Assembly (NCBI GenBank): GCA_022793875.1
Contig: JAAWDR010000033.1
Location: forward strand, 50,137 to 114,136
Direction: 5' to 3'
Length of the DNA: 64,000 bases
DNA from: Clostridia bacterium
GTDB taxonomy: Bacteria > Bacillota > Clostridia > TANB77 > CAG-508
A model generated the notes under the pieces. The model had not been told where the DNA came from, searched no databases, and saw nothing but the letters and a program-made list of their open reading frames with translations. Below, piece after piece: positions 58,501 to 60,126 of this stretch (position 1 is its first letter; each line of letters opens with the position of its first letter). Position numbers and translations under genes: made by a program.

Positions 58501-58529
58501 TTGACATTTTTAGAAAATTAAAATATAAT
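58501..58529 (+). promoter_or_regulatory. Consensus sigma-A promoter driving the retron-like module
   Basis: TTGACA - 17 nt - TATAAT exactly. Confidence 0.6.
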
Positions 58530-58536
58530 ACAAACA

Positions 58537-58895
58537 TTCCAACAAGGCTCGCAGAAATCTCCCTTTTATGGTTGATTTAAAAAATCAATGAAGAATACAT
58601 TAGTATTCTGCATAATATTTAGAGCTGTAGATACAACTAAGGGAATAAAGCAAAATAAAAATCTAAATATCGGATAAAAATACAAAAATAATTCTATAAA
58701 ATAGAATATTAATCGGACACATTTAGATATAATAATAATTTATATTTAAATATATTCTGTAGTGAAACAGATAGGGAGTTCTAGTATTCGTCCGACAAAT
58801 AGTTTAATTAGGATCACAAATAAGCCATTCACATTCCAAAAGATTAGGGATAGGGAGACTTCTTAGAAATAAGAAGGCTAATCTAAAAAAAGGAG
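58537..58895 (+). ncRNA. Candidate retron non-coding RNA (msr-msd) region
   Basis: A 360-nt non-coding, hairpin-rich stretch between a perfect promoter and the RT module. Candidate a1/a2 pair AGAAATCTCCC (58553-58563) / GGGAGACTTCT (58852-58862), 10/11 complementary. msr-like hairpins GTTGATTTAAAAAATCAA and AGAATACATTAGTATTCT sit right after a1. Confidence 0.35.
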
Positions 58896-58900
58896 GTGAA

Positions 58901-59119
58901 ATGATTATGAAAATCTCAAAACAAGACAAAAAATTATTAATGGGCATTGTTTTCATAATATTAGTTGGAAAGATTTGTGGTCTTAGTGAAGAAATTTTAG
59001 GTAAAATCATAACTGGTTTTCTAAGTTTTGAGATTATAGCAAATTTAGACCTTTCAATAGAAAGAAAAGGTAAAAGAAAATGGGCTATTCATCTAAAATT
59101 CTTTACTAAAACTAATTAA
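58901..59119 (+). CDS. Small membrane protein (72 aa), candidate retron accessory/effector
   Basis: AGGAGG RBS. TM helix LLMGIVFIILVGKICGL. Lies between the structured RNA region and the RT. Confidence 0.5.
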   Translation: MIMKISKQDKKLLMGIVFIILVGKICGLSEEILGKIITGFLSFEIIANLDLSIERKGKRKWAIHLKFFTKTN

Positions 59120-59180
59120 ACTTTTTTTGTTATAAATAGATTTGAAAAAAATCTACTTATAAGAGAAAAAGGAGAAAATA

Positions 59181-60126
59181 ATGAATTTTGAAAAATGCTC
59201 ATTATATAATATTGTTAGAAAAAGAGATTTATATAATAAACTTGGATTTGATAAAGAAGGAAAAGATGAAATAGAATATAAATATAAAATCTGCATAGAA
59301 GGTGATAGATTATTAGAGAAACCAAGAAGGAATATAAAAGAAGTACAAAGCAGAATTTTAGCGAAATTATATGAATTAGATTATCCAGAATATCTATTTT
59401 CAGGGGTAAAACGGAAGAAGTGCAAAAGGAAATGCTCTTTATCATAAAGATGCACTTTATATGGTAAAATTAGATTTAAGTAAATTTTTTCCTAATACGC
59501 ATAGAGAGAAAATATATAAATTGTTTTTGGATAAATTTAAAATGAAACCAGATGTAGCAAAGCTATTAACAGATTTCACAACCGTTAACTATAAAGATAG
59601 TTTTAATAAAATTGAAATTGAAGTAAATGAGTTTATTAAAAAGAAGAAAATAAGAAATATAAATCATCTTCCATCAGGAACACCTACTAGTCAAATATTA
59701 GCATACTTAGCTAATATAGATATGTATGATGAGATTATAAAATATACTAGTAGTCAAAATATAACATGTTCTATTTATGTAGATGATATTACATTATCAT
59801 CAAAAAAGAAAATTTATAAAATCCAAGTAAAAAGGATTTTAAATATAATAAATAAATATGAACATAAATCAAATTTAAGCAAAACTATAAGTTATGGTCC
59901 AACCGATTATAAAAAGGTAACAGGATATGTTATATCACCACAACATAAATTAGTTATTCCCAATAAAACTAGGTATAAAATAAAAAATACTATTAGAGAA
60001 TGTAAGAAAAATAAAAAAATAAGTAAAACTATAAGAAATTCTATATTAGGTTCTATAAATTTTGCAAATACATCAATAAAAGGAAGTTATGAAGGATTAA
60101 ACAAAAAATTAAAAAGCTTAAAGTAA
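59181..60126 (+). CDS. Retron-type reverse transcriptase, interrupted by a +1 frame change at CGG (59412-59414)
   Basis: Frame 1 ends ..YLFSGVK; the +1 frame continues GRSAKGNALYH..LDLSKFFPNT...LPSGTPTSQILAYLANI...YVDDITLSS...KKVTGYVI. RT motifs 1-7 are present, including YVDD, NAxxH and the retron-specific VTG. Confidence 0.8.

What the first reader, a model, noticed from the sequence alone, without database searches (positions are those of the whole stretch)
58501..60126. Retron-like module (promoter, structured ncRNA candidate, small TM protein, retron-type RT) appended to the capsule locus
The RT carries the retron hallmarks FSGVKGRS..NAxxH, LDLSKFFPNT, SGTPTSQILAYL, YVDD and the retron-specific VTG triplet, and is only about 305 aa. 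Upstream are a perfect TTGACA-17-TATAAT promoter and a 360-nt hairpin-rich non-coding stretch with a candidate a1/a2 complementary pair. A 72-aa single-TM protein is wedged between the RNA region and the RT. An ncRNA, small membrane protein, RT arrangement is unusual. The RT itself needs the CGG-associated +1 shift to be full length.
Basis: partly seen in the sequence, partly recalled or inferred. Interest (0 to 1): 0.75.

Follow-up and report, generated by a model that had tools for sequence, protein, structure and literature searches.

The report
Type VI retron with frameshifted RT
This is a phage-defence retron of the recently described Type VI kind (promoter, structured RNA carrying a small toxin gene, reverse transcriptase), and its reverse transcriptase can only be made if the ribosome skips one base at a very rare CGG codon, a feature kept in all nine related lineages found and apparently not reported for retrons.

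Summary
A perfect sigma-70 promoter (58501-58529) precedes a conserved structured RNA, a 70-72 aa helical hydrophobic ORF and a 314-aa retron RT that needs a +1 shift at AAA-C-GGA (59409-59415).

It is in fact the signature of Type VI retrons (Retron-Vpa2, Retron-Sen3). The RT hits PADLOC RT_VI at 2e-60. The RNA has covarying a1/a2-like pairing, a 9-nt direct repeat, an anti-SD over the small protein's RBS, and inverted repeats flanking that gene. The usual Cro/C1 HTH partner is absent.

The new element is the frameshift:
- Nine diverged lineages (RT 73-82% identical, at least four genomic contexts) carry the same AAR-C-GGN site and form one clade.
- Both RT halves have dN/dS of about 0.1-0.25 at dS of about 1.
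- The stretch after the shift encodes family-invariant residues and has no start codon.
- CGG is 0.19 per 1000 codons here.

I conclude that this is an HTH-less Type VI retron whose RT is made by programmed +1 ribosomal frameshifting at a slowly decoded ("hungry") CGG codon. msDNA synthesis, defence and the trans-frame protein are untested.

The parts
58501..58529 (+). Sigma-70-type promoter: TTGACA, 17 nt, TATAAT. The transcription start should be near 58536.
   Evidence: 12/12 match and the only perfect one in the region. The same boxes sit at the same place in relatives, and homology between genomic contexts begins here.
58553..58564 (+). a1-like C-rich element (AGAAATCTCCCT; core TCTCCCT 58558-64). 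It is followed by the family-invariant TGG (58569-71), a candidate priming G.
   Evidence: Complementary to 58852-63 (12 nt, 92%) and to 58772-78. It covaries with both partners: CUCCCU/AGGGAG, AGCCCC/GGGGCU, GUCCC/GGGAC, GCCCCA/UGGGGC. The TGG is invariant in 17 sequences.
58572..58608 (+). Two msr-like stem-loops: SLa (58572-77 / 58583-88) and SLb (58593-98 / 58603-08).
   Evidence: Compensatory changes: SLa pair 54/66 is AU:10 GC:6; SLb pair 78/93 is UA:7 CG:6 and pair 74/97 is AU:13 GC:4. Inverted repeat I16.
58610..58769 (+). Variable, length-polymorphic middle segment. This is the candidate msd (template for reverse transcription).
   Evidence: Poorly conserved and of different length in relatives, while both flanks are conserved. 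Assigned by analogy with the variable SL3 of Retron-Sen3. Inferred, not shown.
58770..58778 (+). Direct repeat copy 1, GATAGGGAG. It lies at the 3' end of the msd-like segment and is the a2-like partner of a1.
   Evidence: the repeat finder family D5, 100% identical to 58849-57. Covaries with a1. Matches the conserved direct repeats of Type VI hybrid RNAs.
58797..58811 (+). IR1, the 5' arm of the long-range pairing that encloses the small-protein gene.
   Evidence: 15 nt, 93% complementary to 59112-26 (I5). Predicted in the minimum-free-energy fold. The flanks covary: AGUUUAAUUAG/CUAAUUAAACU against AAUUGUUAAUUAU/AUAAUUAACAAUU.
58829..58837 (+). Anti-SD (TCACATTCC) that pairs with the small protein's ribosome-binding site.
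   Evidence: Predicted by RNAalifold. Pair 233/336 is AU:9 UA:6 and pair 234/335 is CG:12 UA:4.
58841..58884 (+). Riboregulator domain: stem AGATTAG/CTAATCT enclosing direct repeat copy 2 (GATAGGGAG, 58849-57) and hairpin CTTCTTA/TAAGAAG (58859-76).
   Evidence: D5, I23. The stem is replaced by other complementary sequences in distant relatives (read by eye).
58892..58898 (+). Shine-Dalgarno sequence (GGAGGTG) of the small-protein gene, sequestered by the anti-SD.
   Evidence: GGAGGT is invariant in 17 sequences.
58907..59119 (+). SP: small hydrophobic helical protein of 70 aa (72 aa if the non-conserved ATG at 58901 is used). It is the positional equivalent of the Type VI SP toxin.
   Evidence: An intact ORF lies 42-78 nt before the RT in nearly all relatives examined. 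No hit in Pfam, PADLOC or NCBIfam. Two predicted helices. Hydropathy 2.07. dS is lower than in the RT, which points to a constraint at the RNA level.
59112..59126 (+). IR2, the 3' arm of the long-range pairing. It overlaps the SP stop codon (59117-19).
   Evidence: I5.
59121..59171 (+). 23-bp hairpin between SP and RT. Its 3' arm runs into the RT Shine-Dalgarno sequence (AAGGAG, 59169-74).
   Evidence: I1. Eight of its 18 pairs have changes on both sides and 98% of cells are paired.
59181..59411 (+). RT, zero-frame part (residues 1-77), ending with Lys AAA.
   Evidence: dN/dS 0.08-0.26 among split lineages.
59409..59415 (+). +1 frameshift site AAA-C-GGA. The zero-frame codon in the ribosomal A site is CGG (59412-14). 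The +1 frame is closed by TAA at 59407-09 and the zero frame by TAA at 59445-47.
   Evidence: The same AAR-C-GGN site is found in nine lineages. CGG accounts for 3 of 15,863 codons in the window.
59413..60126 (+). RT, +1-frame part (residues 78-314 plus the stop codon), with NALYH, YVDD and VTG.
   Evidence: dN/dS 0.09-0.24. The model of the joined protein has pLDDT 88 and pTM 0.83 and best matches retron RTs at TM 0.65-0.73 over the full length.

Best explanation
The segment 58501-60126 is a compact, mobile Type VI retron that lacks the usual HTH protein.

A strong promoter drives a transcript of about 650 nt, a 'hybrid RNA'. Its 5' part is the msr-msd-like template: a C-rich a1 element, an invariant UGG, two stem-loops, a variable msd, and a G-rich a2 element. 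Its 3' part carries the gene for a small hydrophobic protein (SP). The SP ribosome-binding site is locked by an anti-SD, and the SP gene is enclosed by a long-range inverted repeat.

The RT gene follows. It is read in two frames. Ribosomes translate 77 codons and pause with Lys-tRNA on AAA in the ribosomal P site and the very rare CGG in the A site. A fraction then moves +1, so that GGA (Gly) is read next, giving the full 314-aa enzyme. The rest terminate after a short, unconserved tail.

By analogy with Retron-Vpa2, the RT bound to the RNA makes little msDNA at rest. On infection, msDNA accumulates. Its copy of the direct repeat (CTCCCTATC) pairs with the second repeat in the riboregulator and frees the SP ribosome-binding site. 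SP is then made and stops the infected cell.

Shown here: the family assignment, the conserved and covarying RNA, the conservation of the shift site, and purifying selection on both halves of the RT.

Inferred: the ribosomal nature and efficiency of the shift, msDNA synthesis, SP toxicity and phage defence.
For: Family assignment:
- PADLOC RT_VI at 2.3e-60, against 1.5e-31 for the next type.
- All PDB sequence hits and the 18 best fold hits are retron RTs.
- In more distant relatives of the same RT family, the upstream ORF is PADLOC HTH_VI.

RNA:
- Covariation in five helices.
- Three-way covariation of a1 with the two G-rich repeats, and of the flanks of IR1/IR2.
- A 9-nt direct repeat, as described for Type VI hybrid RNAs.
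- An anti-SD:SD helix with compensatory changes.

Frameshift:
- An identical site in nine lineages, which form one clade sister to unbroken relatives.
- No unbroken protein above 59% identity among 5.8 billion proteins.
- dN/dS 0.08-0.26 on both sides at dS 0.6-1.35.
- The 16 codons after the shift hold the invariant residues G78, N84 and H88 and contain no start codon.
- L043 has no Met at the supposed second start.
- The zero-frame tail varies from 1 to more than 20 codons.
- CGG is used at 0.19 per 1000 codons.
- The joined protein folds as one retron RT.
- Precedent: +1 shifts at rare CGG_A codons, with a C inserted 5' of GGA, occur in glass-sponge mitochondria (PMC5009743).

Mobility: the module sits in at least four contexts, and homology runs from the -35 box to the RT stop codon.
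Against: - No experiment supports any step: no trans-frame peptide, no msDNA, no defence assay.
- The HTH protein that neutralises SP or restrains the RT in both studied Type VI retrons is absent. How the toxin is kept silent is therefore unclear, and the Vpa2 model may not transfer.
- No Rfam family matches the RNA, and Type VI hybrid-RNA models were not available for comparison.
- SP has no detectable sequence relative outside this clade, so its equivalence to known SP toxins rests on position, size and predicted helices.
- No conserved RNA structure accompanies the shift site.
- The upstream SD-like AGGAG also occurs in some unbroken relatives, because it encodes Ser-Gly-Val. No stimulator is therefore established.
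- With AAG in the P site (L013, L043) the tRNA cannot re-pair in the +1 frame. The mechanism would have to be out-of-frame entry of Gly-tRNA, as in yeast Ty3.
- The unbroken sister clade shows that the frameshift is not needed for an HTH-less system.
Confidence: 0.7

Rival explanations
1. The RT is a dead gene. A 1-nt insertion killed it in an ancestor, and the module is a decaying or domesticated remnant. Only the RNA and the small protein may still matter.
For: Both RT ORFs are annotated as separate hypothetical proteins. A relative in the sister clade (L028) has an independent -1 break, so broken copies do occur.
Against: Nine lineages, diverged to dS of about 1, keep both halves open with dN/dS 0.08-0.26 and no further stop or indel. 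Catalytic YVDD and all 60-odd family-invariant residues are retained. A single-base deletion would restore the frame, yet no lineage has reverted.
Confidence: 0.07
2. The RT works as two separate polypeptides: an N-terminal fragment of 78-88 aa, and a C-terminal fragment of 221 aa restarted at ATG 59461, 13 nt after the first stop. The two would assemble non-covalently.
For: In the window the first ORF stops at 59447 and an ATG follows at 59461, a spacing compatible with termination-reinitiation. Gene callers predict the 221-aa ORF in several lineages.
Against: The 16 codons between the shift and that ATG are conserved as protein in the +1 frame and contain the family-invariant residues G78, N84 and H88 (the NAxxH motif). 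They would go untranslated. L043 has ATA instead of that ATG. The Met is equally present in unbroken relatives. No SD precedes it. The position of the zero-frame stop varies widely.
Confidence: 0.08
3. The frameshift is read through by ribosomes but has no regulatory meaning. It would be a 'problem indel' tolerated because decoding of the nearly unassigned CGG is so slow that most ribosomes shift anyway. This is corrective frameshifting, as in some mitochondria.
For: The same C-GGA / rare-CGG motif is interpreted this way in glass-sponge mitochondria (PMC5009743). CGG is almost unused here. No stimulatory element was found.
Against: Retention in all nine lineages, without a single reversion over dS of about 1, suggests that the site is selected rather than merely tolerated. 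This argument is weak. The conservation of the extra C itself is only marginally unexpected (my estimate, p about 0.1).
Confidence: 0.15

Closest known systems
Retron-Vpa2 (Type VI retron, Vibrio parahaemolyticus; bioRxiv 10.1101/2025.10.22.683967)
   Same: - A hybrid RNA holds the msr-msd and the coding sequence of a small toxic protein.
- The SP ribosome-binding site is locked in a helix.
- Inverted repeats tie the 3' end back to the first arm.
- Conserved direct repeats occur once in the msd and once in the riboregulator.
- The RT lies downstream (compared).
   Different: - There is no HTH gene here.
- The SP is unrelated in sequence.
- The host is a low-GC gut Clostridia MAG rather than a proteobacterium.
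- The RT needs a +1 frameshift.
- Nothing has been tested experimentally.
Retron-Sen3 and the cl2075 lineage (Type VI; bioRxiv 10.64898/2026.04.27.721009)
   Same: - The order is SP followed by RT.
- IR1-IR2 pairing flanks the SP gene.
- The SP ribosome-binding site is sequestered.
- The internal stem-loop is variable.
- The SP coding sequence is under an RNA-level constraint (compared).
- That paper states that about 22% of Type VI entries lack the HTH.
   Different: - In Sen3 the HTH is an antitoxin required for viability, and here there is none.
- The SP cluster is different.
- The frameshifted RT is not described there.
Programmed +1 ribosomal frameshifting at a slowly decoded codon: yeast Ty1/Ty3 retrotransposons, E. 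coli prfB, and rare CGG_A/UGG_A sites in glass-sponge mitochondria (review PMC5009743)
   Same: - The shift occurs where a rare codon occupies the A site.
- The C-GGA motif is identical to the sponge cases.
- As in Ty elements, it is the reverse-transcriptase part of a retroelement that depends on the shift (established knowledge).
- A purine-rich SD-like stretch lies 2 nt upstream, as in prfB.
   Different: - The shift lies inside the RT domain, not at a gag/pol-type junction, so the zero-frame product is a useless stub.
- No stop codon occupies the A site, unlike prfB.
- The SD-like element is not specific to the shifted clade.
- The efficiency is unknown.

Membership tests
Retron (RT + msr-msd ncRNA + effector) | RT of the retron lineage, with the NAxxH and VTG motifs and a YxDD catalytic box | tested here: met
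   NALYH 84-88, YVDD 199-202, VTG 246-248. PADLOC retron models only. PDB sequence hits are all retron RTs. The 18 best fold hits are retron RTs.
Retron (RT + msr-msd ncRNA + effector) | Adjacent structured ncRNA whose ends pair (a1/a2), with stem-loops and a variable msd | tested here: met
   a1 covaries with the G-rich partners. SLa and SLb covary. The middle segment is variable. There is no Rfam match.
Retron (RT + msr-msd ncRNA + effector) | Production of msDNA, primed from the 2'-OH of a conserved G | not testable with these tools
   Only a candidate is available: the invariant UGG at 58569-71, just 3' of a1.
Type VI retron (Mestre et al. 2020, RT clade 3) | RT belongs to the Type VI clade | tested here: met
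   PADLOC RT_VI at 2.3e-60 covers 23-269 of 279 profile positions. The next type scores 1.5e-31. No published Type VI tree was available for placing it in a sublineage.
Type VI retron (Mestre et al. 2020, RT clade 3) | Cro/C1-type HTH protein (cluster 2_1) next to or overlapping the RT | tested here: not met
   There is no ORF between SP and RT, and no HTH within the module. PADLOC HTH_VI is found only in distant relatives (L024/L025), upstream of the RNA. The literature gives 78% of Type VI entries with an HTH, so it is frequent rather than universal.
Type VI retron (Mestre et al. 2020, RT clade 3) | Small helical accessory protein (SP) encoded between the ncRNA and the RT, inside a hybrid RNA, with a sequestered ribosome-binding site and conserved direct repeats | tested here: met
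   Position and size, two predicted helices, anti-SD:SD helix, direct repeat D5, IR1-IR2 pairing. Sequence relatedness to the known SP clusters was not testable.
Programmed +1 ribosomal frameshift | The same shift site is conserved in diverged homologues, with purifying selection in the respective frame on each side | tested here: met
   Nine lineages. dN/dS 0.08-0.26 on both sides. The clade is monophyletic.
Programmed +1 ribosomal frameshift | A slowly decoded codon or a stop codon in the A site at the shift | tested here: met
   CGG accounts for 3 of 15,863 codons, against 468 for AGA. Whether the genome has a tRNA-Arg(CCG) could not be checked; the window contains no tRNA genes.
Programmed +1 ribosomal frameshift | A stimulatory element (upstream SD-like sequence or downstream structure) | tested here: inconclusive
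   AGGAG/AGGGG/AGGA lies 2 nt 5' of the P-site codon in all nine lineages, but also in some unbroken relatives. There is no conserved downstream structure.
Programmed +1 ribosomal frameshift | The trans-frame protein is detected | not testable with these tools
   This needs proteomics or a reporter assay.

The most novel reading that the evidence does not exclude
The +1 frameshift at the hungry CGG codon is a regulatory device, not a tolerated defect. It would set or gate the amount of RT, and hence of msDNA and of toxin derepression, according to the state of the translation apparatus. Changes in Arg-tRNA supply, or ribosome perturbation during phage infection, would be the signal. In this HTH-less lineage it would take over the restraint on reverse transcription that the HTH protein exerts in Retron-Vpa2. 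It would be the first programmed recoding event known to control a bacterial immune retroelement, and a bacterial parallel to Ty1/Ty3.
Probability: 0.2. Interest if true: 0.85.

Novelty: new variant of a known kind. Interest (0 to 1): 0.66.

Why it matters
Chromosomal +1 programmed frameshifts are very rare in bacteria; prfB is the textbook case. None has been described in a retron, or, in the literature I could search, in any defence-associated RT.

If confirmed, several consequences follow:
- It adds a translational control layer to Type VI retrons, whose regulation by RNA, HTH and msDNA is only now being worked out.
- It gives a natural HTH-less minimal system of 1.6 kb (RNA, SP, RT) in which to test how SP is kept silent.
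- It shows that catalogues built from intact ORFs miss whole retron clades. NCBI calls the RT halves 'hypothetical protein', and every close relative in a database of 5.8 billion proteins is listed only as a fragment.
- It extends Type VI retrons to uncultured low-GC gut Clostridia.

Tried and rejected
- Rfam scan of 58300-60300 at E up to 10: only a chance miRNA-like hairpin match.
- Pfam, PADLOC and NCBIfam on the small protein: nothing. Its homologue search found only seven close relatives.
- Scan of viral contigs for the RT family: none, so there is no evidence of phage carriage.
- Metagenome scan with the single protein: one extra locus only.
- CGG-linked shifts elsewhere in the window: of 55 CGG triplets, only 59412 shows a frame switch. 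The overlapping ORF pairs in the capsule locus are separate genes (Alg14-like/GT28C and two hexapeptide transferases).
- Conserved RNA structure around the shift site: none.
- SD-like stimulator specific to the shifted clade: rejected as unproven, because the same codons occur in some unbroken relatives.
- Transcriptional slippage: rejected, because the A run is only four bases long (sequence).
- Sequencing or assembly error: rejected, because the site is in 22 contigs of this variant and in eight other lineages.
- MAFFT alignment of the RNA: it was out of register between groups for the P-stem, its inner hairpin, the a1/G pairs, and IR1-IR2 in the distant group. Those helices rest on a per-sequence search or on reading the sequences, which can over-fit. 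Only five helices went into the formal count.
- I did not build a covariance model, and I could not compare the RNA with the published Type VI models.
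Full report
**What is in the sequence.** The window is 26% G+C and comes from an uncultured gut 'Clostridia bacterium' MAG. NCBI lists the 221-aa C-terminal RT ORF as hypothetical protein MCI8617942.1. Genes 43914-58455 form a capsule/exopolysaccharide locus: LytR-CpsA-Psr, a priming sugar transferase, an Alg14/GT28C pair, GT1 enzymes, Wzy, a Wzx-type flippase, two hexapeptide acyltransferases, Acyl_transf_3, an epimerase and UDP-glucose dehydrogenase. Mannose-6-phosphate isomerase and Prs follow. 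The finding lies between the dehydrogenase (stop at 58455) and the isomerase (start at 60161). It consists of:
- a perfect TTGACA-17-TATAAT promoter at 58501-58529, the only 12/12 match in 2 kb;
- about 360 nt without a credible ORF;
- a small ORF at 58901/58907-59119 behind a strong GGAGGTG;
- a 23-bp hairpin at 59121-59171;
- an RT gene in two pieces, 59181-59447 and 59461-60126.

**The RT is a Type VI retron RT.** The joined protein hits PADLOC RT_VI at 2.3e-60 over almost the whole profile. The next retron type scores 1.5e-31. Pfam sees only a generic RVT_1 domain, and NCBIfam gives a sub-threshold retron St85 match. Every sequence hit in the PDB is a retron RT. An AlphaFold2 model of the joined protein (pLDDT 88, pTM 0.83) has residues 60-100, across the junction, at pLDDT 87-93. 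It matches 18 retron RT structures (TM 0.65-0.73, full length) ahead of group II intron, G2L4, DGR and DRT enzymes.

**The arrangement is the Type VI layout.** Two recent preprints show that Type VI retrons encode a small toxic protein (SP) inside a 'hybrid RNA' that also holds the msr-msd. This is normally followed by a Cro/C1 HTH protein and then the RT. The SP ribosome-binding site is sequestered, inverted repeats close the structure around the SP gene, and conserved direct repeats lie in the msd and in the riboregulator. I collected 43 loci in all. Among the roughly 25 distinct relatives whose upstream region I inspected, nearly all have a small ORF of 62-91 aa ending 42-78 nt before the RT.

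**The upstream RNA is conserved in all of them**. On an alignment of 17 sequences, five helices that I named are 94% paired, against 40-53% when the partner is slid. Fifteen pairs are changed on both sides, against 2-7, and the covariation score is 0.315 against at most 0.12. The helices are two msr-like stem-loops, IR1-IR2, the anti-SD:SD helix and the post-SP hairpin. RNAalifold found the anti-SD:SD helix on its own, with AU/UA and CG/UA exchanges.

A per-sequence search shows that the 5' C-rich element covaries with two G-rich elements: CUCCCU with AGGGAG twice, AGCCCC with GGGGCU and GGGGC, GUCCC with GGGAC, and GCCCCA with UGGGGC twice. It also shows that the flanks of IR1/IR2 covary between groups. 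In the window the two G-rich elements are a perfect 9-nt direct repeat, GATAGGGAG, at 58770-78 and 58849-57. This fits the published description of one repeat at the msd and one in the riboregulator.

No Rfam family matches, and the published Type VI models were not available to me.

**What is missing.** No HTH gene lies between SP and RT, or anywhere in the module. That holds for the window, for the eight other lineages of its clade and for the sister clade. In more distant relatives (L024, L025) a 79-aa ORF upstream of the RNA hits PADLOC HTH_VI at 2.7e-8. The family is thus tied to Type VI by this partner as well, and this branch has lost it. The literature says about 22% of catalogued Type VI entries lack the HTH. 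In both studied systems the HTH is needed to keep the system non-toxic, so the control of SP here is open.

**The small protein.**
- It has no family hit and only seven close homologues.
- It is predicted as two helices, at moderate confidence.
- Its N-terminal helix is hydrophobic enough for a membrane span.
- The first ATG (58901) is ACG in relatives, so 58907 is the likely start.
- Its synonymous divergence (0.16-0.72) is well below that of the RT in the same lineage pairs (0.8-1.3). That fits an RNA-level constraint on the coding sequence, as reported for Sen3.

**The frameshift is conserved and under selection.** In a search of 5.8 billion proteins, every relative above 59% identity is listed only as a C-terminal fragment of 194-223 aa. 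I recovered the DNA of nine distinct lineages: the window variant (22 contigs read, six fetched as L001-6), L007/8, L009, L010-12, L013/14, L015/L042, L040, L041 and L043. All switch from frame n to frame n+1 at the same place:

...TCN GGR NTN AAR C GGN ARA NGT GC...

The P-site codon is AAA or AAG. The extra base is always C. The zero-frame A-site codon is always CGG. The next +1 codon is GGA or GGT.

The nine lineages form one clade, sister to unbroken relatives at 51-56% identity. They sit in at least four genomic contexts:
- UDP-glucose dehydrogenase | isomerase (the window);
- pyruvyl transferase | Wzz;
- upstream of a PemK toxin;
- ToxN | AAA_14-DUF4143.

Homology between contexts runs from the -35 box to the RT stop codon.

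Nei-Gojobori dN/dS among six of these lineages is 0.08-0.26 for codons 1-77 and 0.09-0.24 for the C-terminal part, at dS 0.6-1.35. After removal of the C, each lineage gives an uninterrupted protein of 314-316 aa.

The 16 codons between the shift and the first downstream ATG encode GRSAKxNALxH. They include residues G78, N84 and H88, which are invariant across the family, and they contain no start codon. L043 has ATA in place of that ATG. The zero-frame tail ends after 1, 6, 11 or more than 20 codons.

These facts argue against a pseudogene and against a two-polypeptide RT restarted at 59461. The protein must be read across the junction.

**How the shift probably works.** CGG accounts for 3 of 15,863 codons in the window's genes, against 468 for AGA. 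A ribosome with Lys-tRNA in the P site should therefore wait on an empty A site. That is the classical condition for +1 frameshifting at 'hungry' codons, as in yeast Ty1/Ty3.

[quoted passage not shown] That is the same motif.

Because AAG-C occurs in two lineages, re-pairing of the P-site tRNA is unlikely. Out-of-frame entry of Gly-tRNA on GGA, as in Ty3, is the better guess; this is an inference.

A purine-rich SD-like stretch (AGGAG, AGGGG, GGGAG or AGGA) lies 2 nt upstream, as in prfB. It encodes Ser-Gly-Val, however, and is also present in some unbroken relatives. No conserved structure flanks the site. The efficiency is unknown.

Whether the shift is regulatory or merely tolerated cannot be decided. 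The absence of any reversion in nine lineages favours selection for the site. Against a necessary role, the unbroken sister clade is also HTH-less.

**Comparison and novelty.** The module works like, and is best filed with, Type VI retrons. The RT clade, the hybrid-RNA features and the SP position are all met. The HTH feature was tested and not met, so this is an HTH-less variant.

I found no report of a frameshifted or recoded retron RT. Mestre et al. mention a frameshift only in a type II-A2 effector.

I rate the finding as a new variant of a known kind, and of above-average interest, mainly for the conserved +1 recoding site.

**Limits.** Everything about function is inferred. Part of the RNA model rests on searches fitted to each sequence. 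The sampling is entirely metagenomic.

Noticed in passing
L028:308-1251: A sister-clade RT (52-54% identical to the window's) has an independent -1 frame break near residue 105. The break is at a different place from the conserved +1 site. It is probably a true pseudogene or an assembly error, and it serves as a contrast to the conserved site.
   Followed up: no
L019:1780-2240: In this sister-clade locus the 5' half of the conserved RNA is missing. It is replaced by unrelated sequence that begins with what looks like a tRNA gene. SP and RT are intact. This may be a truncated or re-targeted copy.
   Followed up: no
L024:1559-1798 and L025:1566-1805: In distant relatives the HTH_VI-like protein (PADLOC 2.7e-8) is encoded upstream of the ncRNA, giving the order HTH-RNA-SP-RT. 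The published order is SP-HTH-RT.
   Followed up: partly
window 58534-58542 and 58831-58839: The first bases of the predicted transcript (ACATTCCAA) are an exact copy of the anti-SD that covers the SP ribosome-binding site. A 5'-terminal AUUCC is kept in all relatives. This could provide a second, competing partner for the SP or RT Shine-Dalgarno sequence.
   Followed up: no
window 58907-59119 compared with 59181-60126: Synonymous divergence of the small-protein gene (dS 0.16-0.72) is about half that of the RT gene in the same lineage pairs. This suggests selection on RNA structure inside the coding sequence.
   Followed up: partly
window 58456-58500 and 60127-60160; L007, L010: The module has inserted at the 3' end of a capsule locus in the window, and inside another capsule locus (pyruvyl transferase | Wzz) in L007/L010. 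Elsewhere it lies next to ToxN, PemK and AAA_14/DUF4143 genes. No transposase or flanking repeat was seen, and no terminator separates the RT from the isomerase gene.
   Followed up: partly
window 16843, 16891, 26366, 31603: These are the only in-frame CGG codons inside long ORFs of the 64-kb window, four by the frame map. Whether they fall at conserved Arg positions, which would show that CGG is still decoded as Arg, was not checked.
   Followed up: no
L013:1872-2161: The small-protein gene appears split (44 + 54 aa) around a run of ambiguous bases in this contig, whereas the near-identical L014 has it intact (73 aa). This is most likely a scaffold gap artefact.
   Followed up: no
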